Below are positions 17,950 through 55,343 of a stretch of 64,000 bases of DNA, piece after piece (position 1 is the first letter of the stretch; each line of letters begins with the position of its first letter). A model generated the notes under the pieces. The model searched no databases. It was not told where the DNA came from and was given only the letters and a program-made list of their open reading frames with translations. Both the position numbers and the translations under genes were made by a program. Origin of the DNA: Candidatus Bathyarchaeia archaeon (GTDB taxonomy: Bacteria; Patescibacteriota; Microgenomatia; PFEM01; JAFGMK01); the NCBI GenBank assembly GCA_035529595.1, contig DATKWK010000023.1, positions 601 through 64,600 on the forward strand, written 5' to 3'.

Positions 17950-18094
17950 TAAGCGCCTCAAAAGACAGGCTAAACTCAAGTTTGATTTGTTTTCAAAAGA
18001 TCCATTTCATGAATCGTTATCTAGCCATTGCCTAAGAGGCAAAAAGATTGGTTTAAGAGCTTTTTCTGTTACTGGAGATTATCGGGTAATCTAG
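17891..18094 (+). pseudogene. RelE/YafQ-family mRNA interferase toxin, C-terminally truncated
   Basis: HESLSSHCLRGKKIGLRAFSVTGDYRVI matches the RelE/YafQ core (H.L.G....R...V..DYRII). The ORF stops immediately before MITE copy A. Confidence 0.45.
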
Positions 18095-18099
18095 AATTC

Positions 18100-18219
18100 A
18101 TTTCAAAACCTACTTTCTGTGTCATCCTGAGGGGTCGAAATTTCGGCCCCGAAGGATCTAGCGAAGCGCTTACGCTAGATTCCTCGCTCTTGCTCGGAAT
18201 GACAATGGGGTTTTGAAAT
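18100..18219. mobile_element. MITE-like palindromic element, copy A (GTCATCC...GGAATGAC, flanked by ATTTCAAAACC / GGTTTTGAAAT)
   Basis: Terminal inverted repeats with two internal hairpins. It is related to the copies at 24935 and 39801. Confidence 0.55.
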
Positions 18220-18398
18220 AGCTTCTATAAGATGCTTGATAAATCAAAAGTAATTTTTCTTGATATCGGTACTCATAATCAGGTTTATTGATTGGTTTTT
18301 TCAAAAATCTTTCCCGAATCGGCGAAGATACTTCCTCTCCAACTCAGGAAAGATCATGAAGTTTTTTCAGCTTGGGGTAGGAAAAGTCTATAAATCCA

Positions 18399-18447
18399 AA
18401 AAAAAAGCCGGACACGTCTTCCTGTGGGGGGAAGGGTGTCCGGCATC
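18399..18447 (-). terminator. Rho-independent terminator (GCCGGACACCC...GGGTGTCCGGC plus a T9 run on the minus strand)
   Basis: GC-rich stem with a T-run. It is nearly identical to the terminator at 21889..21937. Confidence 0.7.
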
Positions 18448-18469
18448 GGACTGCGGTTTCAAGAAAAGG

Positions 18470-20728
18470 CTACGGCCGTGGTTGTGGGAGGGGTCCAGTG
18501 CGTGCGACGGTGGGTAGATACAGCCACGCCGTAGGCGTGAAGGGAGGTGTGTTGCGCACGACCAGGTCGGCTGTGACCTCCTTGACTATCTGGCCGTTGT
18601 CCCCCTGGAGATGGAAAGTGACCGTTCCCTCTGGGGCTTCTGAGGCGATGCGGACGCCCTCAAGCGGCATAAGGAGACCACAGGTATTGTTGACGTGGGT
18701 CCACCTCGTGGGTCCCTGAACGAAATCCAGAAGATTTGCCGGTTCGGTCTCGGTCCACAGAGAGACTGTTATAGGCGGAGACGGGCAAAACCGCTCCGAG
18801 CCTGCATTTCTCTGGATCCAGTCACCGCCGGGAACGGTAGAACTGGCGTAGAGGTAGAGCTCCAATCGGAACTGGAACTGGTCGGGGTAGAACTGTAGCC
18901 ACTCCATGTCCGTATCCTGGGAACAGGTGTTGTACACATCGGCGTGCCATGCGTACCTGTTCCACTCCGTAGTGATGGGGTACTCGAATGAGTATACTGT
19001 CCAACCGGGTTGTCCTTCGATACAGAAAGCCATTTCGCAGGCGCCCGGCTTGCAGCGCGAAGAACTGTTACAGATCCGAACGGACTGGAGCAGGTCGGGT
19101 GGCCAATTTCCGTTGACTTTCAGGATTGGCCGCTCTCCGAACGGGACCTTCCAGATGCCTCCTTCGAGAAACGCGCGGGAGAGGAAGTCGAGCCTATTCT
19201 CGAGCTGGAGGCCGCTGATGCAGGCCTCGTCGAAGAAGACCCATTCGTAGTCGGCATCCGACCAGGTCTCTCCAGAATCGGTAACCCCCGACACTGACAC
19301 GCGATTGACTTGGTGGCTGTGAGCTGTCCCATTGAGTTGTACCTGGAACTGACACTCGTAGGTATTGCCTGCCTCGACAATTTGGGGAACGGAACAGGTG
19401 CTATCGTCGATCTTGGTAACGTCCCCAAATGCCGAGTCTACGATGGACTGTAGGTGTAGATTCTGGTCTCCGGTTGCCCCTACTACGATCGTAAAGGAGA
19501 CCAAGCCGCCGGGCTGGGCCAGATGGTCTGGGTTGGCAGTCTTGTAGACCTGGACCAGCTCCGGGAGGTCACGGACATCCATTGTAACAACGGCCGTGTC
19601 TTCACCATATCCATTGGTGATGGTATAGGTGAAGGTGTCTATGCCGACCCAGTGTGGTGCCGTTTCTCCTCCGGGAGGAGAGTAGACGAGGTGACCCTCG
19701 TCGTGAATATAGACCTCACCATGTTCTGGTTGCCCGGCCGAGACGAGAGTGAGATTGCTTCCGAACCCCGGGAGGTCGTTTTCCCAAGGCCAGAGCAACA
19801 TTGTCCCGTTGTTTCTGACGATATACAGGTCGTCGATCGCAATGGGCCGGATCAGGTCGGCTGCAACTGTAGGTGGCGTATCGTAGTAGCGGTTGCCGTA
19901 GATATCACGCAGGTCGTTGCATTCCTGGTTAGTGTCAACGTACCAAAGGTCAGCACCCGCAGCCGTCATGGTGGCGACTAGCGAACTGACTGACCTAGTC
20001 GAGCAGCCGTCTCCCAATGCTCCGATCGAACACCTGTATCCTGGATTTGACACGCAGATTCCCCAGGCATGGAGGAGCCACTGGTCGAGATAGGTCCATC
20101 CGCTTGTTGATGCGCCTTGGGCATTGGTGATGGCTATACTGGCGCTCAGTGGTGTTGTAACGGTGACGATCTCTCTGAACGTTGGGTCACCGTTGTAGAA
20201 CCAGGCACCTGCCCGGTCCTCTGTGTGCAGATGAGCTGCGGTCTCCGAGCCGAGCCGGAGCAGACGGTTAAGATTCTCCCGCTCGACAGAACCTGACCCA
20301 TCGAACCCGAACAGGACCAACGTCGGGGTCGATTGCTGCATAGCCGCGAGAACTGTCAGCGCTGGCCGCGAGGGGACCTCGATCACGAACTCGTAGACCT
20401 CGTAGGGCAGCCCCGCTAGCGTCTGTTCGACACGCGTCTCGCAGTTGCCGGCAACCTCCGGATTGAGCGCCTTTACTGCGGCACAGATTTGTTCAACCTT
20501 CTGTGCCAGGCTTGTGCCGGAGGCTAAGTTGATCGTACGTGTGACCGTTTCCCCGGGGGTGGGGACGGTCACTTCGGTCTCGAACCCAAGGGTGGGCTCG
20601 GGATCCTGGCTACGGGGGGCAGCCAGGGCGGATAACGGGTGGATCCCAAGGATCCACACCAGGCCTAACGTAAGAGCGAGGCCTAGGGAAATGACGATTA
20701 CCAGGCGCAGAAGCGCCTTGGTGTTCAT
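18470..20728 (-). CDS. secreted vWA-domain giant protein (MIDAS motif FGFDGSGS) with a large beta-rich C-terminal region
   Basis: I assign the start at ATG 20728, which lies 8 nt after a perfect AGGAGG; the track ORF extends to 20884. There is a signal/TM segment at the N-terminus. The gene is GC-rich, about 55-58% in hand-counted samples. Confidence 0.6.
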   Translation of the reverse strand: MNTKALLRLVIVISLGLALTLGLVWILGIHPLSALAAPRSQDPEPTLGFETEVTVPTPGETVTRTINLASGTSLAQKVEQICAAVKALNPEVAGNCETRVEQTLAGLPYEVYEFVIEVPSRPALTVLAAMQQSTPTLVLFGFDGSGSVERENLNRLLRLGSETAAHLHTEDRAGAWFYNGDPTFREIVTVTTPLSASIAITNAQGASTSGWTYLDQWLLHAWGICVSNPGYRCSIGALGDGCSTRSVSSLVATMTAAGADLWYVDTNQECNDLRDIYGNRYYDTPPTVAADLIRPIAIDDLYIVRNNGTMLLWPWENDLPGFGSNLTLVSAGQPEHGEVYIHDEGHLVYSPPGGETAPHWVGIDTFTYTITNGYGEDTAVVTMDVRDLPELVQVYKTANPDHLAQPGGLVSFTIVVGATGDQNLHLQSIVDSAFGDVTKIDDSTCSVPQIVEAGNTYECQFQVQLNGTAHSHQVNRVSVSGVTDSGETWSDADYEWVFFDEACISGLQLENRLDFLSRAFLEGGIWKVPFGERPILKVNGNWPPDLLQSVRICNSSSRCKPGACEMAFCIEGQPGWTVYSFEYPITTEWNRYAWHADVYNTCSQDTDMEWLQFYPDQFQFRLELYLYASSTVPGGDWIQRNAGSERFCPSPPITVSLWTETEPANLLDFVQGPTRWTHVNNTCGLLMPLEGVRIASEAPEGTVTFHLQGDNGQIVKEVTADLVVRNTPPFTPTAWLYLPTVARTGPLPQPRP

Positions 20729-20730
20729 AT

Positions 20731-21175
20731 GTTCCTCCTTAGTATCTGGTTCCGGTAGCCTCCGATGTTTTGGAGTCCCACCTACCGGAAAAAAGTTGAT
20801 CTTGTGAAACCAGCAGTCCGATGAAAAGCAAAATCGTATTTTGCCATCCCACGCTCCAAGGAGTCCACGCCTTCGGCGGGACACCTTGCAGGAGGGATTA
20901 GCGCTTTTTGCTCTTTACCGGACTGCCGGTTGGGATCAGACTTTTTTCATTTCACCTCGGAGGAGCAAGATCGTTGTCTTGCACCATCCGAGGAGAAAAT
21001 CACTCGGAGGAATTCGCCTCACAACCCTTATGTCCTAATCCCTAAACCCTATATTTTGTAGCCTTTCAAGAAACCAGCTGTTTTGCTGTTTTTTCGACTG
21101 GCTCTTCGCATTACGAAGAACAGTCAAGCAAAACAACAAAGGTAACTTGAAATTGTTATTTCAAGTTGTCAAGGT
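20731..21175 (-). promoter_or_regulatory. promoter/operator plus ~450-nt conserved 5' leader of the vWA gene (copy A)
   Basis: Blocks 20731..20820 and 20913..21175 are near-identical to 24808..24898 and 25108..25330. The promoter region has TTGACA next to the 22-bp perfect palindrome ACTTGAAATAACAATTTCAAGT. Confidence 0.5.
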
Positions 21176-21373
21176 GCAATAGCAGCAATATTTACTGCTT
21201 TTTTGCGAGCCAAGTATTTTAGGCCGGCCGCTTTATGGCCGGTTTTGAATGGTCTTGACCGCAAAGAGGTAGGGGAGAGAGATTTTTCAATTAATTGTTT
21301 TTATCTCTATTTCTTTCCCATCTCTTTAGGGTCAAGGTTTGTTGATTGACTTTTAATTTTTAAAAGATCTGAA

Positions 21374-21658: not shown

Positions 21659-21888
21659 CTAGGTTTTTAAAGTGCGAGCAAAATAACCCCTAGCTTTTTA
21701 CTAAAAAACTCTTTTTTACCAAAAACGGCCTCTTTTGGAGACCAATTTCTTGATCTCTAAAAGCAAGCCGATTATAGCATAAAATTAATGAATAAGCAAT
21801 ATTATAGGATAAGGCAGGTTTTTTCGAAGGTAAGGAATATTGTAAACTGGTTTTACTTTACTGATTGGCTTGAAAAAAGCCGTTAAAT

Positions 21889-21937
21889 CCAAAAAAAAAG
21901 CCGGACATGTCTCCTGTGGGGGGAGGGGTGTCCGGCT
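21889..21937 (-). terminator. Rho-independent terminator, a duplicate of 18399..18447
   Basis: Same hairpin and T-run; it follows the 21963 stop. Confidence 0.7.
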
Positions 21938-21962
21938 CGGACTGCGGTTTCAGGAAAGGCTA

Positions 21963-24802
21963 CTAGCGTGTCACTTGGACGGTGGCGGTCGCGGTATAGA
22001 CCCGACCGCTACTGTTGGACGTCACCGTCCAGATCGCTGTAAACGGCCCGACGTGGTCCGGCGAGCCGGTCCAGGCGTCCCAGTAATTGGTCGAACCGTA
22101 CCAGGCTCCCATCGGGAGCTGACCGGCCGGCCAGCACTGCCAGCCGTCGGACAAGGGGGGAGTCACACAGAGTTGCATGGCCACGACCAGGTCGTGACCG
22201 GAGATGTTGGAAACTCCCCACTGCCAACGGGCCTTAGAGCCTGGTGGAGTGACTACGTTTGGGTTGGGGCTGTTGGTACCCTTGACCCAAACCCTGAGTT
22301 CGGCCGGGGGCGGGCCGGGCGGAGGCCCGAAGATAATGGGTAGCCAGATTCGCGCAACACAGCCTGTGCAAGGTTGGACTGGTAGTCGCGATGGCCATTC
22401 GTAGGCGCCGAGGTCGATGCCACTGCCGTACGGCCTGCTTGCTCCGTAAGCGTCGTGATCGACGATTATGGGTGCCTTTGGATGGTCGCGGCAACGACTG
22501 TCCTTGCCGAGGCTGTAGTCGCCGTTGGCGGGATCGACGAAGAACGGATCTCCGTCGTATAGATCGCCCGAGTCCCAGGTCATTGGCCAGATGGGTCCCT
22601 CCCAACCAACACCTGGCCCAGGTTCAGGCCGCCAGCTGATGTAGTATAGTTCAGTGTAGCTGTGCCCGTCAGCTCGTGCTGCCAGTGTGTTGTTGTCGAG
22701 AATGGTGTTGTACACTTTGACGGTGGGCGCTCCACTGGAGTATTCGATCGCTTTGAAGCCGATCGGGTTATCCACCAAGGTGAGGTGAGCAACCGTTAGT
22801 ACCGATCCGCTATGAACCAGGCGCAGTTGTAGTCCGGCGTCGTTTGCCTTAGCAACGACATCGTTCACGATCTCGAGGTTGCCTGGGATCACAGCATAGA
22901 TGCTGGAGCCCCAGCTCGAATCTGCAAAGTCGCCGATCGAGACGATACCGTCGAGGCTTCCGTTCTGCCGGATACTTCCAACACAGGCTCCGAAGCTATC
23001 GGCATAGTTGTCCTGGCAGCGGATGCGGAAGACGCGGATGTTGCCTGGTCCAACCATGAGGCCTCCGCCTGAGGCGCCGCTTGACCGGTTGTTCTCGAAA
23101 GCACAGTCTTGGACTATGCCTTCGGTGATGTCTAGCCCGCCGCCGGTGAAGCTGGCGATGTTGCCAACGAAGTGGACGTTACGGATCTCGGCTCGGATGC
23201 CGCTAGCGACGTAGATTCCACCACCGGATTCCAAGTTGCCCATTGCCGAGGCATCACCGTTCATGATAGTGAGACCATCGATGGTGATGTCGGGTGTTTG
23301 CATAGCGGCCGCGTAGGCGAGGGAGTCGAACGGCGTGCCGTCGGCGTTGAGCACTTCGTGGGAAATGACTCCCCAGTGCTCGCCATCGCCAGCGAGAGTG
23401 CCGACTTCGGTCTCGGTAGCTGCACCGCAGGAGAGGCTGCTTCAGGAGCAACGTAGATCACTCGGCCGCGGCCTTGGGCATCAAGTGTTGTAGTGTAGGT
23501 GCCCGGTTTCCGGACCGAGAAGTCAGCCGAGTAGCCGCCCAGCAGACTCAAGTGCTGATCTACGAAGACCACTTGCGAGATGGTTTGCGTAGTAGCTTGG
23601 AGCTGCACTGCAGCTAGAAGGGTCTCGACCTCGTGTTGGCGCTTGGTATCGACCAACAGCCGCCAGTCGTCGCCAAGGGCAGCGAGTATGGACGCGTCGG
23701 TTGCGGCTGACTCAGTTCGCGACTGGACGTCGGTGTAGACGCCGCCGGCGATTCGGATCTCAGCGTCCGACTCGGCTCGGTTAACTGCCTGCTGTACTGT
23801 CCGACACGGATTCGTTGCGTCACTGCAGTCGTTGCTATCGTCGCTACCAGCAGTGCTCACGTAGCAGATTTGACAGGTTGGCAGTGGGATTGTCTCAACC
23901 GTCGTAGTCACCACGACCTCATCCCACGATCCCTTTGACCCATCGGTGCGGACTGTAGCTGTGATTGTGCCGATGAAGCTAGGGTTCACCGTGACGACCA
24001 CCGTGGTTTGCCACGTCATGGTCGGCGGCAGATCCGTAACCGTCCATGTGTGGCTGCCACTCGGGCTGACTTGCGACGGCAAGGTCAGAGTGAGGTGGAA
24101 GGTGTCGGTGATCCCGCCGACGTTGGCCAGTTGAACTGTGTAGGTCAGACTTCCGCCGGACGTGACCGGATCGGGTTGGGCCAGGAGGTCAACGTCGACA
24201 TTCGGTTGGTGATTCCGAAGGTCGTCGATAACCTTACCCTCGTCGGGTGGTGGTTGATAGTAATACTCATCCACGCACCCGAGGAGGTCGGTTCCCCCCT
24301 CCTGGTCTTGGATGTAGGCCGCCATAGTATAGCCCTGTGCCCGAAGCTCGTTCAATCGGACGCAGGCTTGGGCCGCGTCGGTACACCAGCCATCGCCGAC
24401 GAAGATGAATCCTCGAGTGCCAGCCCAGGGCAGCCCATCGAACATGGCAACACCGGCCTCAATTGCCGGCAGGCAGTAGGTGTCACCAGTGGGCGTGACT
24501 GTACCGGCTACGCGCAGGAACGCGTCTGAAGCGGTCTGGGGATCGGTCAGCAGCGTGACCGTGTAAAAACGATCCCCGTAGTAACCGCCCCCGGCGACTT
24601 CGGCCTCGTCGGCGTTCAATTCCAAGGCCAACCGGCTGGCGAACCCCAGCCCCTCTTGAGTGTCAGTGAAGGTCCGGCTCCCGGAGGAGTCAACCGCCAC
24701 AAACACACCCATCTTGGGTGAGGCGGCCAGCACGGCCATAACGCCCAGAGCCATCAGGAGCCCCAGGGTGAGAGCGAGAACTAAACGCATCTTTACATTC
24801 AT
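21963..24802 (-). pseudogene. second secreted vWA-domain (FVAVDSSGS) plus parallel beta-helix giant protein, split by a frameshift near 23440 into ORFs 23261..24802 and 21963..23354
   Basis: The upstream ORF ends in a low-complexity out-of-frame tail. The downstream frame is open from a TGA at ~23447 and reads like a beta-helix (GGGIYVASG...NVHFVGN). Same RBS and leader as copy A. Confidence 0.5.
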
Positions 24803-24807
24803 TCTGT

Positions 24808-25330
24808 GTTCCTCCTAAGTATCTGGTTCCGATAGCCTCCGATGTTTTGGAGTCCCACCTACCGGAAAAAAAGTTGATCTTGTGAAACCAGCAGCCCGGG
24901 AAAAAACAGAAGCAAAATTAAATTATGTGATTAAGTCATTCCGAGGGTCGACTATTCGACCCGAGGAATCTAGCGAAGCGTGAATTATTATTCTTATTAT
25001 CGATTTTTACGCTAATGCTGGATTCTTCTCCCACAAAATGCGGGATCAGAATGACCGGTTCTTGTTGCTAATCACTAAAAACTGATCACTGATGGACTGC
25101 TTCTATTCTTTACCGGACTGCCGGTTGGGATCAGACTTTTTTCATTTCACCTCGGAGGAATTCGCCTCACAAACCCTAGACTCTAGTGTCTAATCCCTAA
25201 ACCCTATATTTTGTAGCCTTTCAAGAAACCAGCTGTTTTGCTGTTTTTTCGACTGGCTCTTCGCCTAACGAAGAACAGTCAAGCAAAACAACAAAGGTAA
25301 CTTGAAATTGTTATTTCAAGTTGTCAAAGA
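24808..25330 (-). promoter_or_regulatory. promoter/operator plus leader of the vWA gene, copy B (interrupted by MITE copy B)
   Basis: Sequence identity to copy A. It lacks a 46-nt internal duplication present in copy A. Confidence 0.5.
24935..25055. mobile_element. MITE-like palindromic element, copy B (GTCATTCCGAGGGTCGA...CAGAATGAC)
   Basis: Terminal inverted repeats. It shares the internal TCTAGCGAAGCG motif with copy A and is inserted in the leader. Confidence 0.5.
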
Positions 25331-25656
25331 GCATTGTTGAGAGCAATGGTTAAGAGCAAAGTTCTCTAGCCTTGCGCCCAACCAGCCGATCTCAAGTTGA
25401 TAAAAAGATACTTGCATAACGCTTTCTGAGATAGTCGAATAAATAGACGACCGAGTCGTCCTGAAAGCGATTTTTCAGCATCCACCAATTCATAGTCCTA
25501 TAGTATTCTTAATCTCCTTTGGAAGCTTGATTGGAAAGTCGAAAAAACTAGCAAAAGAGGCCTATTTTTGACAAAAAGATTGACATTTGTTAAACATTAT
25601 GGGATAATCTTACATATAAAAATAAGAGCGGATTTATTTTAAGTTTATATAGGTTA

Positions 25657-26934
25657 ATGGGGGAAATACCAAAATATTTCTATCAATATTATAAGCCTGA
25701 ATTAATCAGGGTTAGTCGCCTGGTTAAAAATGGCCAGGCGGTCATTTTTGTGGGCATTAACGGCATCGGGAAAAACCTCCTGGCCGGTCAAATTTTATCC
25801 AACCGCTTTAGAAAAGAATTTTTAGGCCAGATTAAAACTCATCTGGTTTTTTTGGATTTCAAAGATAAAGCCGCGCCATCCCGGGAACAATTGTTGCAGT
25901 ATTGGCTGTCGCAAACCGCTCAGGCTTTAAAAATAAAGGCGGAAAAACTTAAGCCCCTCAATGAATTCACTTTTTATTCCCAGATGGAGAGGTTGATAAG
26001 GACGGTGGCAGCGGAAGAAAAAATTTGTTTCTTGGTTCTAGACGCGCAACAAATCTTATCTCAAAGTGAACAGTTTTTTGATTGTTTGATTAACCTCAAA
26101 TATTACTCTTACGGTAAAATCTCTTACGTCTTCTTGGCCGAACCCCGGATTTTGGCTCATCCGAATGCCGGATTGCAGCGGTTCATCCAGCGGCTGACGA
26201 ACAATAAATTTTCGTTTTTGAGAACCTTTGATCAAAAAACTTCTCTGGCCGATATTCGACGCGAGGAGAAATTATTTCAAACCAGCTTTGGGGGTCAGGA
26301 GAGAATGATTTTGGAACACTCTCACGGTTTGCACGGCCTGATCAGGGCCTTTAGCGTCTTTTTAAGAAAAAATCCTCAAGTAAAAGATATCAGGCAGCTT
26401 AAAAAAATTCTCTTTGCCAGCCAACTGTATTGCTTTTGGATAAGGGAAATTTTGGAGAGTTTGCCGGCTGAATCATTGCGGATTTTAAAAGCGGTTAGCC
26501 AGAACCGCTCGGAAATCAAACGCTTTAAAAAAAGCCTTTATCTTCAGTGGCTGTTTGATTTAGGGCTTTTAAAAAAGGACGGCCAGCTTAAGCAGCCTTT
26601 GTTTTTACCGGTGTTGGAAAAAATGACGGTGAGTACAAAAAGCCATCAACCGTTAATTAAGTTGGCAGTCGATCAATTTAGCTTTTCCGGAGAAAAAGTA
26701 AAGTTAACTCAAAAAGAGTTTTTAGTCTTACGGACTCTTTATAAGAACAGAGGCAAAGTGGTCAGTTTTGAAAGAATCGGCAATGTCTTGTGGTCAAACA
26801 AACCGGATAATTTTTCCCTGTGGGCGATTAGCCAAGTCATCCGCCGTTTGCGGAAAAAACTCAATTATTATTTTATTAATCCCAAGACCATCTCTTCTTT
26901 AAGAGGAGAGGGTTATTCTTTGGAGGTGAAATGA
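25657..26934 (+). CDS. P-loop ATPase (Walker A GINGIGKN) fused to a C-terminal OmpR/PhoB-type winged-helix DNA-binding domain
   Basis: The C-terminus LTQKEFLVLRTLYKNRGKVVSFERI...VIRRLRKKL...SLRGEGYSL matches trans_reg_C. The N-terminus has Walker A and hhhhD Walker B. Confidence 0.6.
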   Translation: MGEIPKYFYQYYKPELIRVSRLVKNGQAVIFVGINGIGKNLLAGQILSNRFRKEFLGQIKTHLVFLDFKDKAAPSREQLLQYWLSQTAQALKIKAEKLKPLNEFTFYSQMERLIRTVAAEEKICFLVLDAQQILSQSEQFFDCLINLKYYSYGKISYVFLAEPRILAHPNAGLQRFIQRLTNNKFSFLRTFDQKTSLADIRREEKLFQTSFGGQERMILEHSHGLHGLIRAFSVFLRKNPQVKDIRQLKKILFASQLYCFWIREILESLPAESLRILKAVSQNRSEIKRFKKSLYLQWLFDLGLLKKDGQLKQPLFLPVLEKMTVSTKSHQPLIKLAVDQFSFSGEKVKLTQKEFLVLRTLYKNRGKVVSFERIGNVLWSNKPDNFSLWAISQVIRRLRKKLNYYFINPKTISSLRGEGYSLEVK

Positions 26935-29132
26935 GATCACCGGAAGCTACTGCTGAGATAAAAAGCCGAATGATACCTCTTTTTATGAGAGATGCCTATA
27001 GGCAGACCGACGGTTGGTCAAAAGAAGCGCTTGATCAATTACCGCATCTCCTTACTGACGGAGATTTTTTCGATTTATTAAGAAGAGGTTTAGATGGTCT
27101 CAATAAAGAAGTTTGGCCAGTTTACCAAGCTTTCAGCGATGAAGCCAGAGTGGTTATTGCTGATCCTGACTATTTTGTTCAGCCTCGGCAGAGGAGTGAA
27201 GTCTTGAGACATTATGTCAGGAGACTCGGTCGTTCCTGGTGGTTAAAGGATGAAACCCGGGAGAATTATGAAAAGGTTTTCGAGAAAGACCAATACGGTT
27301 ATAGCTGGGCCGCGGGAAATCTTTGGGAAGGTTTAGGTTACCAGGTTTTAATCGATGCCCAGGATGAAGAAAAAGGCATTGTTTTAAGAGCCGATGAAGT
27401 CAGTATCAGCCGGGATTACTTAATTGGTTATTTGAATAATTATTTTAGCCGTTTCCGGTGTTTGAATATTCCCGAAAGAGTTCAGGCTTGTTTTGAGGCG
27501 ATTAACCGAAACCTTTGGCCGCTTGGCCGCCAGCCTCGCGACCGGCTGTTTTTTGATACGCCGGCGGTCTTTTTCTGGCTGGCCAGCGCCGGGTTTTTGT
27601 GTGAAGAAGGCCGGGTGACCGATTCAATGGCCTTTGAAAGCGGCTTTCTCAATCTTGAAGAGAGACTGGCGGCGACTAAAAAGAGACTGGCTGAATTAGA
27701 TCTTTTTAGCCAGCCTGATTTTCAAGAAAAGTATTTCCAGTTATTTGCCTTTATCAGTGATTATCTTTCTGATCACGGCCGGTTGGAGGAATTTGAGAAT
27801 TATCTTTCCTGGGTCGGCGACAGGACCGATCCTGATTTTGTTGCCCGGCTCTTTGGGGATGTTTATGTCAGCAATATCTATCCCCGAGGCGACCTTCCTG
27901 GGCTTTTGGGCAAAACTTACTTACTATCCAGGAAATTAAAAGCCGCCCTGCCTAATGATTCAGAGCAGAGAGTTGGTTTATCGGAGATTGAGGCTGATTT
28001 ATGGCGGCGTTGTCCGGGTGATATTTATCCCTTAAGACCGGAGCTGGTCAGTCCCGAACTGATTGCCCGCTTTCAGGAAAATCCGGCGGAATTTTGGCCG
28101 GAAATGTTTAGGCAGTTGGTGGCCTTGGAGATGGAAAGATTATTTAAAGGCCAGCCTCGGGTGAAAGGAATTTACGAAACCGCTGCCAATAGCGAGCGGA
28201 AACTGCTGCCTGACCTGATTGTTATTTTTGGCCATATTTTTGGTTTGGAGCCAAGCGAAGTTATCCGTTTGGCGGCGATCGGTTGCTTTGACTGGGCCGC
28301 GATTATTGAAAGAGATGACACTATTGATGATGGTGGTCTGAGGAAAGGCAGAAGACCGATGGCTGCTCAGGAAGGTGTCAGTCGGACGATTCGAATGACG
28401 ACGATTGCTCAAGCAGCAGCGACGCGGAACCTTTTGCCGCTTTGGGGCAAGGCGGCGACTGACGATTATTGCCAGATGGTCCAGCAGATGTATGATGCGG
28501 ATATGGAACTGGAAGAGACCGGTTTGGCGGCACCGGATGACCAAATCTGGCAGGCAATGGATAGACTGAATAGCGCCTTTAGCTGGTTTATTAACTGTAT
28601 GGCTGGTGTCAGAGCCAGGGATTTAGAGTCCGAAGCCGGGCAGCGCTTTATTGAAGCTGGTCAATCTTTCAGCGAGTTTATGTCCAGGATCAATATGATC
28701 GCCCAGCTGAAGAACGATTTCGAAGATTGGAATCAACCGCCTGGCAAGAAAAAACCGGGGGAAGATTTTGGTCATAAATTTAGCTTGCCACTACGGGAAT
28801 TACTAAAGCTGGTTAGTCCTAAAGAAAGGGCAACTATTCTTGAGGCCTATGCGAATCCAAAAGATGAGGAAATTAAAAGGCAAGCCCTAGAAATTGCCAA
28901 ACTATACCAGCCGCAAGTAATTGCCGCCTTAAAGCCAAGGGTCGAAGAAATTTACGAAAAAGCCAGATTGGCACTGGAAAAAGGATTTGAAGCGATTGCT
29001 GGTTTCCGACCGATGAATGGCGGCCCAGATCGGGTTAATCAGACCTACCAACAGCTTTTAGGGGATTATCTTGATAGCTTGCGAGATAGTTTATGTCAGT
29101 TAGGTAAGAGTCCTCAGGGTCAGCCGGTGTAA
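26931..29132 (+). CDS. 733-aa protein with a C-terminal trans-polyprenyl diphosphate synthase-like domain and a ~400-aa unknown N-terminal region
   Basis: First Asp-rich motif is DDTIDDGGLRKGRRP. A degenerate second motif NDFED is followed by PGKKKPGEDFGHKFSLP (the GKP.G.D...GK.TLP pattern). The start overlaps the upstream regulator (ATGA). Confidence 0.55.
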   Translation: MRSPEATAEIKSRMIPLFMRDAYRQTDGWSKEALDQLPHLLTDGDFFDLLRRGLDGLNKEVWPVYQAFSDEARVVIADPDYFVQPRQRSEVLRHYVRRLGRSWWLKDETRENYEKVFEKDQYGYSWAAGNLWEGLGYQVLIDAQDEEKGIVLRADEVSISRDYLIGYLNNYFSRFRCLNIPERVQACFEAINRNLWPLGRQPRDRLFFDTPAVFFWLASAGFLCEEGRVTDSMAFESGFLNLEERLAATKKRLAELDLFSQPDFQEKYFQLFAFISDYLSDHGRLEEFENYLSWVGDRTDPDFVARLFGDVYVSNIYPRGDLPGLLGKTYLLSRKLKAALPNDSEQRVGLSEIEADLWRRCPGDIYPLRPELVSPELIARFQENPAEFWPEMFRQLVALEMERLFKGQPRVKGIYETAANSERKLLPDLIVIFGHIFGLEPSEVIRLAAIGCFDWAAIIERDDTIDDGGLRKGRRPMAAQEGVSRTIRMTTIAQAAATRNLLPLWGKAATDDYCQMVQQMYDADMELEETGLAAPDDQIWQAMDRLNSAFSWFINCMAGVRARDLESEAGQRFIEAGQSFSEFMSRINMIAQLKNDFEDWNQPPGKKKPGEDFGHKFSLPLRELLKLVSPKERATILEAYANPKDEEIKRQALEIAKLYQPQVIAALKPRVEEIYEKARLALEKGFEAIAGFRPMNGGPDRVNQTYQQLLGDYLDSLRDSLCQLGKSPQGQPV

Positions 29133-29373: not shown

Positions 29374-29402
29374 TTGACTTAATAACCTATTTTGGTTATA
29401 AT
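29374..29402 (+). promoter_or_regulatory. near-consensus sigma70-type promoter (TTGACT, 17-nt spacer, TATAAT)
   Basis: Read directly from the sequence. It lies ~440 nt upstream of the kinase-like gene. Confidence 0.45.
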
Positions 29403-29848
29403 TAGATTAGCTTTAGAGATCTTGGATTTCGTGAAGTTTTGGGGTCTCTAAAGAAGAGACCTATTTTAATAGGCGAAAGCTCTTTGACAATTGAAGATGG
29501 TTGTAGGGAGCTACCCCGGCACACTTCCGGTTATCCAATCAAGTTTCTGATCATCCATCTAGCTTGGATATAAAGGATTTTTTTGGTAATCGGAAAAGTG
29601 CGTCGGGATCGTCTCCCTACAACAAAGACCTTCTTTCTGCTGCTTGAGATTGGTTGGTGGCTTTTTGCAGCACAAGGGGACTTGTGTTCAGGAAGCCATC
29701 GGCCAATTGAAAAGCGGAAAAAGAAAGGAGGATTTGAAACCGCACCTTGAATGGGTCAAGGAAGTAAATTGGTAAATTAAAAGAAATGGACCCCAGTGAT
29801 GGCGAGGGTTGGAGTTTAAAACAGATCAAGTGCAAGTGAAGGAGTGAA

Positions 29849-30757
29849 ATGTCTAAGCAACAGTTGTGTGTTTCCGAAGTTCTGCCCGGTGCGTTCGTGG
29901 GCGTATCCTCCCAAACTATTCCGTGGGAGGAATTACCCGATCCTTTTGCACTTCCAATCCTCTCGGGAGCAACAGGAGTGGAGAAGGTGAATCTGGGGAA
30001 AAAGGCTCGGATGTGGCGAGCTGATTTGCCTTGCGGTCAACCGGTCCGTGTCAAGCAGGAGTCCCGTCTCGACCCTTGGTGGCACGAGGTTTGGTGTCTC
30101 AAACTCTTGCGCGATTACGACGCCGGTTTTCCGAGGTTGCTGGAAGTTCGAGAGGACGCACGGGTGATGGTTGTCACCGAACTCCCCGGTCAGAATACTG
30201 ACCATTATAGGGGGCCAGGTGTGGATCCCAGAACCCGTGTATCGATCCTGGAGCAGCTCGCTTTGCGGATGGAAGAAATGGCCGACATTGGTGTTGCCCA
30301 CGCCGATGTTTGGTGGGACAACGAGCTTTGGGATCCAGCGTCGGAAAGGCTCAGTATGGTGGACTTCGGCTCCAGTGCCCTCGTAGGTGATAAGCCTTTG
30401 GTGGCTATCCAGGGCCATCGTAAGAACCGAAATTCCAGGACGTGTCCTGGAATTCCTCACCATCCACCGGAGACGGTGTGGGAGTGGGAGCTCCCTCTTG
30501 TCGACGTCAACCGCTTCTACTACGCGGTGGAAGTGTTGGCTTTCGTCTGGGGAGAGGCTGTTGTCAGGCAAATTGCCTACACAAGCGAACTCCGTGTCAT
30601 GGTACCCTGGTTTGTGAGGCAAATGATCTCCCCCAAGACACCGGCCGAGGCAGGCTTACTAGAGGCTCTTTGTACGGCTTTAGACCCGCGCCCGGACCAT
30701 CGTGAAGCCAGCATCCCTGAGATGCTCGACCTCGCAAAGGAGGTGCTGATGCAGTAA
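29849..30757 (+). CDS. protein-kinase-like fold phosphotransferase; GC-rich
   Basis: VAHADVWWDNELWD resembles a catalytic loop and SMVDFGSS resembles a DFG motif. The gene is about 60% GC in one hand-counted sample. Confidence 0.45.
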   Translation: MSKQQLCVSEVLPGAFVGVSSQTIPWEELPDPFALPILSGATGVEKVNLGKKARMWRADLPCGQPVRVKQESRLDPWWHEVWCLKLLRDYDAGFPRLLEVREDARVMVVTELPGQNTDHYRGPGVDPRTRVSILEQLALRMEEMADIGVAHADVWWDNELWDPASERLSMVDFGSSALVGDKPLVAIQGHRKNRNSRTCPGIPHHPPETVWEWELPLVDVNRFYYAVEVLAFVWGEAVVRQIAYTSELRVMVPWFVRQMISPKTPAEAGLLEALCTALDPRPDHREASIPEMLDLAKEVLMQ

Positions 30758-31031
30758 TAACATAGGGAGACGAGGCCGGTAGGCTGATTTGAGCTGCGCT
30801 CTGCGCACAACAACTCAGACTCTACCGGCCCTCTCTTTTGGGCCTAAACGATTTAGATCCAAAAGAGAGGGATGACAGGAGGTTCAGTTTCAAGACAATA
30901 TTTTGCTTGCAGTTGCGGGATTTTATATAGTATACTCAGATTGTCTGCCTTAGGGGTGGAATTGAAAAGACGATTTGGGGGTATGATTTGCAGCATTTTG
31001 ATTAATTTTATGTAAATTATGTTGAGATAAA

Positions 31032-39759: not shown

Positions 39760-39800
39760 GTTCTATTATCCGTAAGAGTCCAGATTTACTGACACACTTG

Positions 39801-39856
39801 GTCATTCTGAACTTGATTCAGGATCTATATAGATTCCGTGTCAAGCACGGAATGAC
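39801..39856. mobile_element. MITE-like palindromic element, copy C (GTCATTCTGAAC...CACGGAATGAC)
   Basis: Same termini as copies A and B, with a central GGATCTATATAGATTCC palindrome. Confidence 0.45.
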
Positions 39857-40731
39857 GGGGTTGCATCAAAGAATCTGAGTAGTTACTAACGTCCCATAGT
39901 GTTGACTTTAGCTGCCGGCACGGATTGAAGACTACCTCTTTGAGGCGGTCTGGAGGGATAACGGGGATGGCCCCCGAATGCCCGGGATCCGTGTAACCAA
40001 GGATGGAAACAAAATCCTTGAAGAGTACACTCTCGCCCGGGACGACCAGAACGATTTTCCCGACGTCTCGGGAGTTGTCTAGACTTGGAGGGGGGAGGTT
40101 ACGTAGAGTTCGTTTTCAGGTCAAGGGAGGGCGTTTTATACTACGATATCTATTAGCGCACTCGAGGCCAGAATCCGCCGTTTCTTGTCTCGCCACTAGG
40201 CGGACGGCGGATTCTGGCCCACTTTGGGAAAGGGAGAAACGGTTTTTTTTCTTGCCTCAAGCGGCAGGAAACCAAAAAACCGAAAAATCCCATTTTCCCA
40301 AGCCATCCTGAACCCTTTGTCACCACTTTTTCTTTTGTTAGACTTAGTATCTCCGTTTTTTTTAATTTATTTTTCACTTCAATAAAGACGGGGAGCTTCG
40401 AAATAGCCTATAACATTGTTTTTCTGTCGATTTTCTGCTCTACTAGATGTAGGCTTTAGAGATCCAAGAATTGGGTCTTTTGCGACCCATTTTTCTTACT
40501 CAAAGCCCCTGTCCCGCCAAAGGCGGGAGCACCTTAACAAGACAGCACGTTGTAATAAAAAAAGGCTATTAGCGCAGAAAGCTAGCACTTTGGATGATAG
40601 CCAAGGAAAAAGGTTACTGTCTAAAATGCTGGTTTTCTGCGCAAGATCGATGCAGAAAGGGGTTAGGCCAATATCCCAAAGCCAGGCTCGTAAGGTCACT
40701 GAACTGATTTCAATCTCAAGGGAGGACTGAA

Positions 40732-43861: not shown

Positions 43862-44113
43862 ATATCGATCTCTAAATTATTCTAAAAGTTAATGTTTACA
43901 AGTGTAGCATATTAATATACTTTGTTCTTAAGATAACAATATATGTTAGTTAGTAGTATTATAATACTACGATATGTTAAGAAACATTTTGTTTAATAAA
44001 TATTACTTTTCGGGGTTAAGGAAAAAACAAATAAGTCTATTTTTTGGAAACACCAATTAAATTTATTGCTATATTGTTGGATTGTTTTATTAGCATATTA
44101 ACAATTAATTGGT

Positions 44114-44491: not shown

Positions 44492-44744
44492 GTGGGAATA
44501 TTATAACTTTATTTATTATTAACTAAAGTAGTTAATAATCCTAATTTAGATTTGCGGTTGATTACCAGCGGGGAAAGAGATTCGCTATTTCTGTTTCAAG
44601 TAGCCAGCGGTCAAGTTCTTTATGCTCGAAGCGAAAAAGAAAGAGTTGCTTTTGAAAAGAAAGCGATGTTTTTTTATTATGATACCCAGTATTTGAGAAA
44701 CATTTTCCAGCATCATTTGAGCCAGAGGATAAGGGAAGGCAATT

Positions 44745-55286: not shown

Positions 55287-55343
55287 CCAAGGTGTCTACT
55301 TATGTACACCCCGGGGGTGAACGCATATAGACACCTTGGTAGA
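55287..55343. repeat. REP-like element copy 4 (CCAAGGTGTCTA, then a TACACCCCGGGGGTGAAC hairpin, then TAGACACCTTGGTAGA)
   Basis: It lies between the transposase stop and the rplL stop. Confidence 0.6.

What the first reader, a model, noticed from the sequence alone, without database searches (positions are those of the whole stretch)
20731..21175. Conserved ~450-nt 5' leader with operator palindrome, mini-ORF and an RBS-proximal hairpin
A conserved block is retained in both cassettes although the coding sequences differ. On the transcribed (minus) strand it contains GAGGTG followed by ATGAAAAAAGTCTGA, a 4-codon mini-ORF with its own SD. It also contains a 7-bp stem CCGGTAG...CTACCGG about 20 nt upstream of the AGGAGG RBS. 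Copy A carries a 46-nt internal tandem duplication and copy B carries a MITE insertion, so the leader is modular. A leader this long and this conserved suggests cis-regulation, for example a riboswitch-like element, an attenuator or a leader peptide.
Basis: seen in the sequence. Interest (0 to 1): 0.55.

Follow-up and report, generated by a model that had tools for sequence, protein, structure and literature searches.

The report
Duplicated, highly folded mRNA leader module
Two neighbouring surface-protein genes in a tiny uncultured (CPR) bacterium carry the same 450-530-base upstream leader, which is predicted to fold very tightly and hide the ribosome-binding site; it matches no known RNA family, but with no relatives found its function stays an inference.

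Summary
Two copies of a non-coding block lie on the minus strand (A 21172->20729, B 25327->24803). They are 97-100% identical in the shared parts, while the coding sequences downstream are unrelated or only about 28% identical. The "46-nt tandem duplication" is really a 47-nt insertion flanked by a 9-nt direct repeat.

Both leaders fold far better than shuffled controls (z -11.7 and -8.8) and 26-28 kcal/mol better than their complements. Shared plan: a 33-bp 5' hairpin, a CCUCC anti-SD that pairs with the AGGAGG SD 270-345 nt downstream (p~1.0), a long helix of about 40 bp with a freely variable tip, and a small hairpin next to the SD. The mini-ORF sits inside that long helix.

A sequence-unrelated leader of a third GC-rich gene (29408-29848), and one in the closest relative, show the same closed design.

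There is no Rfam hit, no internal terminator and no homologue in any collection searched, so covariation could not be tested.

Best reading: a 5'-UTR expression module, paired with a matching terminator module, that masks the ribosome-binding site and stabilises the mRNA. Gene conversion limited to the UTRs probably keeps the copies identical. Riboswitch, attenuator and leader-peptide readings are unsupported.

The parts
21167..21172 (-). TTGACA box (candidate -35), copy A. Homology between the two copies starts exactly here.
   Evidence: the 100 nt upstream show no similarity (z -0.5), and the block from TTGACA onward is 99% identical. The scan called no matching -10 hexamer.
21144..21167 (.). 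Perfect 10+4+10 palindrome AACTTGAAAT-TGTT-ATTTCAAGTT, copy A (candidate operator).
   Evidence: only two matches in the window, 0 expected. Its half-site also occurs near the homologous regulator gene in L006 and L035.
21066..21150 (-). 5' hairpin H1, copy A, about 33 bp. It would begin at or near +1 if TTGACA is the -35.
   Evidence: It is identical in B except for two substitutions in the apical loop.
21016..21049 (-). Mostly unpaired linker rich in G-tracts (GGGUUUAGGGAUUAGG...).
   Evidence: B has 7 extra nt here.
21006..21012 (-). Anti-SD UUCCUCC, copy A.
   Evidence: pairs with the SD G20738-G20734 with probability 1.0.
20956..21002 (-). 47-nt insertion found only in copy A, bounded by the direct repeat TCCTCCGAG. 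It forms its own hairpin.
20936..20958 (-). GAGGTG plus the mini-ORF ATG AAA AAA GTC TGA. It lies in the 5' strand of the long helix and directly follows a CCUCC.
20912..20948 (-). Long helix, 5' arm, copy A.
   Evidence: 14 + 25 predicted pairs with 20788-20833. G-U versus A-C mismatches are 3 to 1.
20834..20911 (-). Variable tip of the long helix, copy A. It is GC-rich and pairs with itself.
20788..20833 (-). Long helix, 3' arm, copy A.
   Evidence: the two substitutions relative to B both keep the pair (U-G to C-G, A-U to G-U).
20752..20788 (-). Hairpin next to the SD: CCGGUAG...CUACCGG, with an inner CUCC/GGAG stem (a masked decoy GGAGG).
   Evidence: In B a C to U change makes a G-U pair.
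20726..20739 (-). SD AGGAGG (20739-20734) and start codon ATG (20728-20726) of gene A.
18470..20728 (-). Gene A: 752 aa, signal peptide, Big_9 and DUF7507 Ig-like domains, GC3 0.68.
18391..18469 (-). 3' module of cassette A: the 3' UTR from just after the stop codon through the terminator hairpin GCCGGACAC...GUGUCCGGC, U9 and GGAUUUA.
   Evidence: 96% identical to 21884-21962. Similarity ends right after it.
24803..25327 (-). Leader copy B. Parts: TTGACA 25327-25322; palindrome 25299-25322; H1 25305-25221; anti-SD 25160-25154; GAGGTG + mini-ORF 25153-25131; long-helix arms 25142-25107 and 24911-24867; variable tip 25106-24912; SD-proximal hairpin 24866-24828; SD 24816-24811.
21963..24802 (-). 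Gene B: one gene of about 946 aa (signal peptide, vWA-like N-terminus, DUF11-like domain, right-handed beta-helix), broken by a frameshift near 23440. GC3 0.68-0.70.
21884..21962 (-). 3' module of cassette B.
29374..29848 (+). Analogous leader of a third GC-rich gene, unrelated in sequence. Parts: promoter TTGACT-17-TATAAT 29374-29402; anti-SD GCUCUUUGAC 29479-29488; two giant hairpins 29500-29623 and 29629-29731; SD AAGGAG 29839-29844.
   Evidence: z -13.0 for 29433-29732 +; z -8.8; SD-partner probability about 0.9.
25657..26934 (+). Divergently transcribed regulator gene: P-loop N-terminal domain plus an OmpR-type winged helix. It is a candidate binder of the palindrome.

Best explanation
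WHAT IT IS
The block is the promoter-proximal region and 5' untranslated leader of a two-copy expression module. Each module has a promoter and leader at the 5' end and a matching 3' UTR and terminator at the 3' end. The modules frame two old, diverged, GC-rich secreted-protein genes in a Microgenomates (CPR) bacterium.

HOW THE RNA FOLDS (prediction)
1. A 33-bp hairpin at or near the 5' end.
2. A mostly unpaired, G-rich linker.
3. A closed domain whose base is a helix between a CCUCC anti-SD and the gene's AGGAGG SD, 270-345 nt apart.
4. Inside that domain, an interrupted helix of about 40 bp whose tip is free to vary, and a small hairpin 12 nt before the SD that hides a second GGAGG.

INFERRED MECHANISM
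- The default state masks the ribosome-binding site, while the 5' hairpin protects the transcript.
- Expression would need the closing helix to open. The most likely route is double-strand-specific cleavage of the long helix (RNase III type). That would cut the anti-SD away from the SD and leave the SD-proximal hairpin as a new protective 5' end.
- An alternative route is a ribosome loading on the mini-ORF, because its initiation footprint would cover the anti-SD.
- The palindrome beside the TTGACA box is probably a protein operator, possibly for the adjacent P-loop/winged-helix regulator.
- The two copies are kept nearly identical by gene conversion restricted to the UTRs.

SHOWN
The sequence anatomy; the duplication with sharp borders; predicted stability and strand bias; insertions that leave the shared helices intact; the same design in unrelated leaders; the absence of any known family.

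INFERRED
That the block is transcribed with the gene; that the anti-SD acts in vivo; processing; mini-ORF translation; which regulator binds.
For: FOLDING
- Leader A: -181.8 kcal/mol against -121.1 +/- 5.2 for shuffles, z -11.7.
- Leader B: z -8.8.
- The complementary strands fold 26-28 kcal/mol worse. Helix mismatches are G-U on the minus strand 12 times against 4 (A and B share part of these helices, so the independent count is smaller).
- Other intergenic 300-nt windows in the window mostly score z between +1 and -3. The stronger exceptions lie next to the cassettes themselves (17950-18469, 21659-21958, 30758-31031), plus 39760-40002 at -3.5, 43862-44161 at -3.3 and 55287-55586 at -3.4. Coding regions are near 0.

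SD-ANTI-SD CLOSURE
- The same helices appear in the independent minimum-energy folds of A and B, despite a 47-nt insertion in A and a tip of 78 versus 195 nt.
- The SD pairs with CCUCC with probability 1.0 in both.
- Pairing of the SD region with a partner more than 150 nt upstream scores 0.76 (A), 0.74 (B) and 0.68 (C). Only 1 of the 46 other genes reaches 0.68.
- Freeing the ribosome-binding site costs about 15 kcal/mol in A and B, against 0-11 for five control genes with an SD.

SUBSTITUTIONS
All three substitutions in shared stems keep the pair, and the other substitutions that can be scored on a shared helix fall in unpaired positions or loops.

INDEPENDENT EXAMPLES
- Leader C is unrelated in sequence but has the same closed design.
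- So does the leader of the divergent gene beside the regulator in the closest relative, L006, where UUUUGCUUUCU pairs with AAGGAGGCAAAA around a long hairpin.

MODULE BORDERS
- Similarity begins at TTGACA and ends about 8 nt after the terminator U-run. The inner borders are the start and stop codons.
- 9 of 13 identical signal-peptide residues use different codons.

PUBLISHED PRECEDENT
Anti-SD-like sequences hundreds of nt from the ribosome-binding site pair with it in vivo, block initiation and are otherwise depleted from genes (PMC12697547).
Against: - No homologue of the leader was found anywhere, so there is no covariation test. All structure evidence is thermodynamic prediction on two near-identical paralogues plus two analogues.
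- G-rich SDs are often predicted to be paired: control genes score 0.5-0.8 total pairing. For leader C the cost of freeing the SD alone (3.8 kcal/mol) is within the control range.
- The TTGACA box has no acceptable -10 hexamer, so the transcription start is unknown. The leader might not be co-transcribed in full.
- Near-identity of unpaired positions shows homogenisation, not selection.
- Three pair-preserving transitions have p of about 0.125 by chance.
- Long imperfect inverted repeats are also what MITE-like insertions look like, and one such element did insert into copy B.
Confidence: 0.45

Rival explanations
1. No dedicated function. The region is an intergenic stretch that has collected hairpin-forming repeat insertions (MITE-like palindromic elements). 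It looks conserved only because gene conversion or a recent copying event homogenised the flanks of two neighbouring paralogues. The predicted SD pairing is incidental.
For: - A repeat family related to 18121-18186 sits in the tip of copy B.
- Copy A has a 47-nt insert with a 9-nt direct repeat that looks like a target duplication.
- Unpaired positions are as identical as paired ones.
- SDs are commonly predicted to be paired.
- The leader is absent from the regulator loci of relatives.
Against: - Strand asymmetry of 26-28 kcal/mol and the G-U bias favour an RNA-level structure on the transcribed strand.
- Insertions avoid the shared helices.
- Homology borders coincide exactly with the -35 box, start codon, stop codon and terminator.
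- The same closed anti-SD...SD design recurs in leader C and in L006, which are unrelated in sequence.
- Apart from the B-tip element, no part of the leader has other copies in the window.
Confidence: 0.25
2. A sensing leader. This could be a riboswitch-like ligand or temperature sensor, a transcription attenuator, or a leader-peptide (MKKV) translational attenuator that switches the SD between masked and open states.
For: - A closed multi-helix junction that masks the SD is the usual architecture of translational riboswitches.
- A mini-ORF with an SD-like GAGGUG lies right next to the anti-SD.
- A second GGAGG in the SD-proximal hairpin offers an alternative partner for the anti-SD.
Against: - No Rfam match at any threshold.
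- No terminator-like site in the shared leader blocks.
- The downstream genes are surface proteins with no metabolic link.
- The ORF has four codons, shorter than any stalling peptide I know of.
- The helix tip and the junction tolerate 47-195-nt insertions.
- No homologues are available to define a conserved pocket.
Confidence: 0.1
3. A recombination scaffold. The identical 5' and 3' modules would serve mainly as homology arms that let different surface-protein ORFs be exchanged or converted between cassettes or between cells (antigenic or adhesin variation), as with the conserved 5' regions of mycoplasma vsp/vpma genes. Any RNA structure would be secondary. This reading is not exclusive of the best explanation.
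For: - Sharp module borders at the start and stop codons, with saturated synonymous sites inside.
- Both products are secreted Ig-like, vWA or beta-helix proteins with almost no relatives in 5.8 billion proteins.
- One copy is a frameshifted pseudogene or phase-off variant.
- Precedent exists: vsp/vpma genes share a conserved 5' UTR and signal peptide (PMC3365025).
Against: - Only two cassettes are visible.
- None of the window ORFs scanned against Pfam showed a recombinase domain, and no inverted arrangement or silent partial copies were found.
- Homology arms do not need z of about -10 folding or an anti-SD.
Confidence: 0.12
4. The block, or part of it, is a separate non-coding RNA gene transcribed from the TTGACA box, and the protein genes have their own start sites near the SD.
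For: - Extreme structure for its length.
- In copy B a promoter-like site lies inside the inserted element (24951-24922).
Against: - No terminator lies between the block and the SD.
- The predicted structure needs the SD itself as a pairing partner.
- No Rfam family matches.
- Copy A has no internal promoter-like site.
Confidence: 0.05

Closest known systems
Long-range fold-back masking of the ribosome-binding site by an upstream or distant anti-SD (E. coli rpoS leader, from my own knowledge; long-range anti-SD effects in B. subtilis, PMC12697547)
   Same: A pyrimidine-rich CCUCC element far from the SD is predicted to pair with it. Intervening hairpins bring the two together. The expected outcome is low initiation and changed decay.
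   Different: - The distance is 270-345 nt, and the element sits upstream in the UTR.
- The closure encloses a long helix of about 40 bp with a variable tip.
- No trans-acting sRNA or Hfq site is known.
- Nothing has been tested experimentally.
- There is no sequence homology.
RNase III-processed UTR duplexes (S. aureus icaR 5'-3' UTR pairing, PMC3868564; phage T7 and lambda N leaders, from my own knowledge)
   Same: Predicted perfect or near-perfect duplexes of 22 bp or more lie next to an SD that is masked by an anti-SD. Cleavage would change translation and stability. The 3' UTRs of cassettes A and B even carry a stretch of about 17 nt complementary to the leader's 3' arm.
   Different: - The pairing is within the leader, not between 5' and 3' UTRs.
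- Here cleavage would be activating rather than repressing.
- RNase III was not looked for in this genome.
- The 5'-3' complementarity is only marginally significant (E 0.08).
5'-terminal stabiliser hairpins (E. coli ompA, B. subtilis aprE and ermC leaders; long S-layer gene leaders), from my own knowledge
   Same: A strong hairpin would sit at the very 5' end if transcription starts about 30 nt after TTGACA. The downstream genes encode abundant surface proteins.
   Different: The leader is several times longer, adds SD masking, and the transcription start is unproven.
Mycoplasma vsp/vpma variable surface lipoprotein loci (PMC3365025); S. aureus tandem lipoprotein paralogue units (PMC2568036)
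   Same: Clustered surface-protein paralogues in a small-genome bacterium keep near-identical non-coding 5' regions while the coding parts diverge. The unit of evolution does not coincide with the ORF.
   Different: - The conserved 5' region is about 450 nt here, against about 70 bp there.
- A conserved 3' module is also present.
- The signal peptides are not conserved at the DNA level.
- There is no lipobox, no adjacent recombinase and only two copies.
Correia-type MITEs in Neisseria, which carry promoters and form RNase III-cleaved hairpins in 5' UTRs (from my own knowledge)
   Same: Long imperfect inverted repeats inside a 5' UTR, with promoter-like hexamers at the edge. A genuine small repeat is nested in copy B.
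   Different: - The long helix has no target-site duplication.
- It has no dispersed copies in the window.
- Its mismatches are biased towards G-U on the mRNA strand.

Membership tests
Any curated Rfam cis-regulatory RNA or riboswitch | Covariance-model score at or above the family's gathering threshold | tested here: not met
   Only two tRNAs were found in the whole window. With E<=10 on both leaders, the best hits score 8.9-19.6 bits against thresholds of 40-90, and all are eukaryotic snoRNA or miRNA noise.
Any curated Rfam cis-regulatory RNA or riboswitch | Conserved core with covarying helices across species | not testable with these tools
   No homologue was found:
- exact-pattern scans of genome, metagenome and viral collections
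- blastn against phages and plasmids
- loci of relatives.
Transcription attenuator (terminator/antiterminator) | Intrinsic terminator (GC-rich stem followed directly by a U-run) inside the leader | tested here: not met
   No terminator-like site lies in the shared leader blocks. The nearest minus-strand hits are 25461-25445, upstream of copy B's TTGACA box and with no counterpart in copy A, and 24720-24706, inside B's coding sequence. The U6-7 run at the foot of the long helix is 14 nt away from the GC-rich stem.
Leader-peptide translational attenuation (erm/cat type) | Leader ORF with its own SD that overlaps a helix controlling the main SD | tested here: inconclusive
   The mini-ORF and GAGGUG exist and lie beside the anti-SD. 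However, GAGGUG is itself predicted to be paired in copy B, and its spacing to the AUG is only 2 nt.
Leader-peptide translational attenuation (erm/cat type) | Peptide long enough to reach the exit tunnel, with a stalling motif | tested here: not met
   The ORF has four sense codons, MKKV. The requirement itself comes from my own knowledge.
MITE | Terminal inverted repeats, a flanking target-site duplication, and many dispersed copies | tested here: not met
   For the long helix: an imperfect inverted repeat is present, but the flanks GAAATG and CCGGTA give no duplication, and no other copies exist in 64 kb. For the B-tip element only: a second copy lies at 18121-18186 and a related 28-mer in L008, so that element may qualify.
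Long-range anti-SD masking of the ribosome-binding site | Complementary anti-SD with a thermodynamically favoured pairing to the SD | tested here: met
   UUCCUCC pairs with GGAGGAA at probability 1.0 in A and B. The long-range score ranks at the top of 49 genes. The unfolding cost is about 15 kcal/mol.
Long-range anti-SD masking of the ribosome-binding site | Effect on translation or decay in vivo | not testable with these tools
   Needs reporter assays, toeprinting or structure probing.
RNase III-processed leader | About two turns (22 bp or more) of near-continuous duplex | tested here: met
   25 pairs (20931-20906 / 20833-20808) in A and 29 pairs in B are predicted. Prediction only.
RNase III-processed leader | The enzyme is present and cleavage is observed | not tested
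   No rnc gene was looked for.
vsp/vpma-like variable surface protein family | Conserved 5' UTR shared by clustered paralogues | tested here: met
vsp/vpma-like variable surface protein family | Conserved lipoprotein signal peptide and an adjacent site-specific recombinase | tested here: not met
   The signal peptides are only 13/30 identical and use different codons, and the N-termini shown have no Cys. None of the window ORFs scanned against Pfam showed a recombinase domain.

The most novel reading that the evidence does not exclude
Microgenomates bacteria may keep a dedicated platform beside a conserved P-loop/winged-helix regulator pair. On it, compositionally foreign, GC-rich secreted-protein genes (possibly derived from the host) are each framed by standard UTR modules and locked by a long-range anti-SD-SD closure around giant hairpins. 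This would be a new class of large cis-acting RNA lock combined with UTR-restricted concerted evolution. It would let an episymbiont with few regulators hold acquired adhesin genes silent until they are processed or induced.
Probability: 0.12. Interest if true: 0.75.

Novelty: new variant of a known kind. Interest (0 to 1): 0.45.

Why it matters
Almost nothing is known about post-transcriptional control in CPR bacteria, which cannot be cultured alone and carry few recognisable regulators.

If the model is right, it would give:
- a concrete, testable example of how such organisms control surface proteins that probably mediate attachment to their hosts;
- a case of masking of the ribosome-binding site over roughly 300 nt in a natural leader;
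- an unusually clean example of promoter-leader and terminator modules evolving in concert while the enclosed ORFs diverge to saturation.

A second lead is independent of the RNA model. GC-rich secreted-protein genes lie next to one conserved regulator pair in several Microgenomates genomes.

Tried and rejected
SEARCHES FOR HOMOLOGUES (all negative)
- The exact 21-mer GCTGGTTTCACAAGATCAACT gave 0 hits in genome contigs and metagenome contigs.
- The 18-mer CCTCCGAGGTGAAATGAA gave 18 metagenome hits. All were seed-only matches of 18-30 nt, which I take to be chance.
- Viral scans:
  - The palindrome gave 3 hits. The one read, L002, has an unrelated context, and all three match only across the palindrome.
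  - AACCGGCAGTCCGGTAAAG gave 0 hits.
  - GGGACTCCAAAACATCGGAG gave one hit, which is a phage terminator hairpin with no flanking homology.
- blastn against phages and plasmids gave nothing.

PROTEIN ROUTE TO ORTHOLOGOUS LEADERS
- Proteins A, B and C have no close relatives.
- Upstream regions of their distant homologues (L011-L013) show no leader similarity.
- Loci of the homologous regulator (L006-L010, L032-L039) lack the leader.

IDEAS REJECTED
- Integron cassette/attC: from reading the sequence, the 3' module is a plain terminator with no GTTRRRY-type core, and no integrase-like domain turned up among the ORFs scanned.
- Recent whole-cassette duplication: synonymous sites are saturated from codon 2 onward.
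- Capture of unrelated foreign ORFs into native UTR frames: made less likely by the weak homology of the signal peptides and the vWA-like N-terminal domains of A and B.
- Conserved small protein in the leader: no ORF of 20 aa or more is shared by both copies.

NOT DONE OR FAILED
- A covariance model was not built. Two near-identical sequences add nothing over blastn, and a full-length model would exceed the calibration limit.
- The first z-score survey timed out and was redone with 300-nt tiles.
Full report
WHAT IS THERE

On the minus strand, two blocks share long stretches of near-identical sequence. Copy A runs 21172->20729 and ends at the ATG of a 752-aa ORF (18470-20728). Copy B runs 25327->24803 and ends at the ATG of the ORF at 23261-24802.

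The shared pieces are:
- 21035-21178 vs 25190-25333, 97% identical;
- 20912-20964 vs 25107-25159, 100% identical;
- 20730-20794 vs 24807-24871, 97% identical;
- 20789-20833 vs 24867-24911, 87% identical.

No other copy exists in the 64-kb window.

- GAGGTG plus ATGAAAAAAGTCTGA at 20958-20936 and 25153-25131;
- CCGGTAG (20788-20782) and CTACCGG (20758-20752), whose 3' end is 12 nt before AGGAGG (20739-20734);
- a perfect 10+4+10 palindrome (21144-21167 and 25299-25322), directly after a TTGACA hexamer.

Two details are wrong. First, copy A has no tandem duplication. It has a 47-nt insertion (21002-20956) bounded by the 9-nt direct repeat TCCTCCGAG, and the insert does not resemble its neighbour. 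Second, copy B does not simply carry an insertion. The tip of one long helix differs in the two copies: 78 nt in A and 195 nt in B. B's version contains a segment of about 46 nt related to an element at 18121-18186.

THE MODULES HAVE SHARP EDGES

- Similarity starts exactly at TTGACA. The 100 nt upstream give z -0.5, while the block from TTGACA is 99% identical.
- Similarity stops at the start codon.
- A second module, 96% identical, runs from the stop codon through a classical terminator (GCCGGACAC...GUGUCCGGC, U9) to GGATTTA. This is 18391-18469 in A and 21884-21962 in B. Similarity ends right after it.

Inside these borders the proteins share only a 28%-identical stretch of 172 residues and loosely similar signal peptides. 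Of 13 identical signal-peptide residues, 9 use different codons.

Sequence identity therefore drops from 97% or more to synonymous saturation within a few bases. A recent duplication of whole cassettes cannot explain this. The UTR modules must have been homogenised separately from the ORFs, either by gene conversion limited to the UTRs or by replacement of the modules.

CONTEXT

The organism is a bacterium: the window encodes MreB, ribosomal protein L1 and VapC. It belongs to the Microgenomates group of the CPR. The neighbouring regulator (25657-26934) has 40-70% identical full-length homologues, and the named ones come from Candidatus Woesebacteria and Gottesmanbacteria assemblies. NCBI labels the MAG 'Bathyarchaeia archaeon', which does not fit the gene content.

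The genome background is 44-46% GC, with GC3 of about 0.33-0.53 for typical genes. Genes A, B and a third gene C (29849-30757) have GC3 of 0.61-0.70.

A and B are secreted proteins:
- A has Ig-like Big_9 and DUF7507 domains.
- B has a DUF11-like domain and a beta-helix.
- Both N-termini carry a DxSGS motif typical of vWA domains (read from the sequence; no domain hit).

B is a single gene of about 946 aa, split by a frameshift near 23440.

All three proteins are close to orphans. The best, very distant hits of A and B include Chloroflexota proteins.

Most native genes lack a strong SD, whereas A, B and C have AGGAGG or AAGGAG.

PREDICTED RNA STRUCTURE

- Leader A folds at -181.8 kcal/mol, against -121.1 +/- 5.2 for dinucleotide shuffles (z -11.7). 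Leader B has z -8.8.
- The reverse complements fold 26-28 kcal/mol worse.
- In the main helices, mismatches are G-U on the minus strand 12 times and A-C 4 times. The counts for A and B overlap in part.
- Among all intergenic 300-nt tiles in the window, most score z between +1 and -3. The leaders score -6 to -9, and coding regions are near 0.

The independent minimum-energy folds of A and B share one plan:
1. H1, a hairpin of about 33 bp (21150-21066).
2. A mostly unpaired linker rich in G-tracts.
3. A closing helix between UUCCUCC (21012-21006 in A; 25160-25154 in B) and GGAGGAA of the ribosome-binding site.
4. Inside that closure, a long interrupted helix of 14+25 pairs in A and 13+29 in B. 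Its 5' strand contains the mini-ORF, and its tip is the variable region.
5. The small CCGGUAG hairpin, which hides a second GGAGG.

The A-only insertion forms a hairpin of its own at the junction.

Every substitution in a shared stem keeps the pair: U-G to C-G, A-U to G-U, and C-G to U-G. The other substitutions that can be scored on a shared helix fall in unpaired positions or loops. This is consistent with the structure but weak, at p of about 0.125.

HOW STRONG IS THE SD MASKING?

- The SD bases pair with the CCUCC partner at probability 1.0 in A and B.
- A score for pairing of the -14..-6 region with a partner more than 150 nt upstream gives 0.76 (A), 0.74 (B) and 0.68 (C). Only one of the 46 other genes reaches 0.68.
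- Freeing the SD through +12 costs about 15 kcal/mol in A and B, against 0-11 kcal/mol for five control genes that have an SD.

The masking is therefore clear in the model, but it is not far outside what G-rich SDs show in any long context.

INDEPENDENT ANALOGUES

Gene C has a good promoter (TTGACT-17-TATAAT, 29374-29402) and a leader of about 445 nt that shares no sequence with A or B. Tile 29433-29732 has z -13.0 on the plus strand and -5.9 on the minus strand. The whole leader has z -8.8.

Leader C consists of two giant hairpins. These are enclosed by a helix between GCUCUUUGAC (29479-29488) and the SD GUGAAGGAGU, with probability of about 0.9.

In the closest relative of the regulator (L006, 70% identity), the divergent gene starts MRGKKAVLRL after AAGGAGG. 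That SD is predicted to pair with UUUUGCUUUCU about 90 nt upstream, around a long hairpin (z -3.9).

So the design 'anti-SD, long hairpin(s), SD' recurs in three sequence-independent leaders of secreted or GC-rich genes near this regulator.

LINK TO THE REGULATOR

- The regulator has a P-loop N-terminal domain and an OmpR-type winged helix. Its 630-770-aa partner gene is conserved with it across Microgenomates.
- In several relatives, GC-rich genes for secreted or membrane proteins lie directly beside it:
  - L007/L032: 193 aa, GC3 0.64.
  - L008/L034: a 246-aa lipoprotein, GC3 0.52.
  - L035: a 585-aa vWA/DUF11 protein, GC3 0.68, plus a 154-aa protein, GC3 0.69.
- In the window, every gene with GC3 above 0.6 lies within 7 kb of this regulator.
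- The palindrome half-site AACTTGAAA occurs exactly within 1 kb upstream of the regulator in L006 and L035. The background is 2 exact matches per 64 kb, counting both strands.

This is a weak hint that the palindrome is this regulator's operator.

WHAT IT IS NOT

- No Rfam family matches, either at the gathering threshold or at E<=10.
- No terminator-like site lies in the shared leader blocks.
- No ORF of 20 aa or more is shared by the two copies.
- No similarity turned up in phage or plasmid records, viral contigs, two scans each of genome and metagenome collections, or loci around distant homologues of the proteins.

The collection scans use exact patterns. They therefore exclude close relatives, not diverged ones.

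MOST LIKELY MECHANISM (inference)

1. Transcription starts about 30 nt after TTGACA, under control of a protein bound at the palindrome.
2. H1 then sits at the 5' end and protects the transcript.
3. The anti-SD closes on the SD once the intervening hairpins have folded, which keeps the ribosome-binding site masked.
4. Opening is achieved in one of two ways:
   - Double-strand-specific cleavage of the 25-29-bp duplex. This would detach the anti-SD and leave the SD-proximal hairpin as the new 5' end.
   - A ribosome initiating on the mini-ORF. Its footprint would cover the adjacent CCUCC.

Published work shows that anti-SD-like sequences hundreds of nt from the ribosome-binding site pair with it in vivo and repress expression (PMC12697547). 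It also shows that UTR duplexes involving an anti-SD are RNase III targets (PMC3868564).

The conserved-UTR, variable-ORF pattern resembles the vsp/vpma loci of mycoplasmas (PMC3365025). Here, however, there is no recombinase and no conserved signal peptide.

VERDICT

This is a real, strongly structured, duplicated leader module of a kind not catalogued.

The regulatory reading is plausible and is made more specific here: masking of the ribosome-binding site, stabilisation of the mRNA, and possibly activation by processing. It rests on thermodynamic prediction and on analogy, because no homologues were available for covariation.

The main rival is that the region is a pile of hairpin repeats kept identical by gene conversion.

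Interest is moderate, and higher if the link between the regulator and GC-rich genes proves to be general.

Noticed in passing
window 29374-31031 (+): A third GC-rich gene (29849-30757, 302 aa, no Pfam or NCBIfam hit, one 32%-identical relative among 1.8 billion representatives). It has a strong sigma-70-type promoter, a very structured leader of about 445 nt (tile z -13.0), predicted long-range SD masking, and a structured 3' region (30758-31031, z -5.8).
   Followed up: partly
window 25657-29132; loci L007, L008, L032-L035: A conserved Microgenomates gene pair: a regulator with a P-loop domain and an OmpR-type winged helix, plus a 630-770-aa partner that has a weak polyprenyl-synthetase-like hit. 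In several genomes it is flanked by GC-rich genes (GC3 0.52-0.70 against about 0.3-0.45) for secreted or membrane proteins. L007 carries two such pairs facing each other across one GC-rich gene.
   Followed up: partly
window 23300-23500 (-): The ORFs 23261-24802 and 21963-23354 are one gene interrupted by a frameshift near 23440. This could be a pseudogene, a phase-off variant or an assembly error.
   Followed up: partly
whole window: NCBI names the source MAG 'Candidatus Bathyarchaeia archaeon' (proteins HUW21546-HUW21581). The content (MreB, VapC, bacterial promoters, homologues in Woese-/Gottesmanbacteria) is that of a CPR bacterium, so the taxonomic label is probably wrong.
   Followed up: partly
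window 18121-18210; 24934-25056; L008 14332-14359: A small palindromic repeat family (GTCATTCCGAG...GAGGAATCTAGCG...CGCTAGAT..CGGAATGAC-like). One copy lies downstream of cassette A and one is nested in the tip of leader B. A related 28-mer occurs in another Microgenomates genome.
   Followed up: partly
window 18447-18463 and 21940-21955 vs 20806-20822 and 24884-24900: The 3' UTR just after each stop codon (GAAACCGCAGUCCGAUG) is complementary to the 3' arm of the leader's long helix, so it resembles the 5' arm. This could allow 5'-3' UTR pairing, or it could be a remnant of a repeat. The blastn E-value is only 0.08.
   Followed up: partly
window 20759-20778; L005 1329-1348: An exact 20-nt match (GGGACTCCAAAACATCGGAG) to a terminator hairpin in a 205-kb IMG/VR contig. 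There is no flanking homology, so it is probably chance.
   Followed up: yes
window 21033-21049 and 25190-25204 (-): The linker between H1 and the anti-SD reads TAGGGTTTAGGGATTAGG, which looks like a telomere repeat. Together with the GGG run and the GG just downstream this gives four G-tracts, so a two-tier RNA G-quadruplex is conceivable.
   Followed up: no
window 20500-20699 (-): The 5' part of coding sequence A, just after the signal peptide, folds unusually well for a coding region (z -6.4).
   Followed up: no
window 25537-25559 (+) vs 21078-21100 (-): The 3' strand of H1 (TCGAAAAAACAGCAAAACAG) is 91% identical over 23 nt to a sequence just upstream of the regulator's own promoter. In L006 that position holds the AACTTGAAA half-site. 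It may be a shared protein-binding site.
   Followed up: no
window 43862-45253: A 1.4-kb stretch at 35% GC with no ORF of 100 aa or more, no Rfam hit, and unremarkable folding apart from its first tile (43862-44161, z about -3).
   Followed up: no
window 21710-21744 and 25552-25579: An inverted copy of the regulator's promoter-upstream sequence (CAAAAGAGGCC..TTTTTG) lies between the two cassettes. There it forms a second terminator-like hairpin after cassette B.
   Followed up: no
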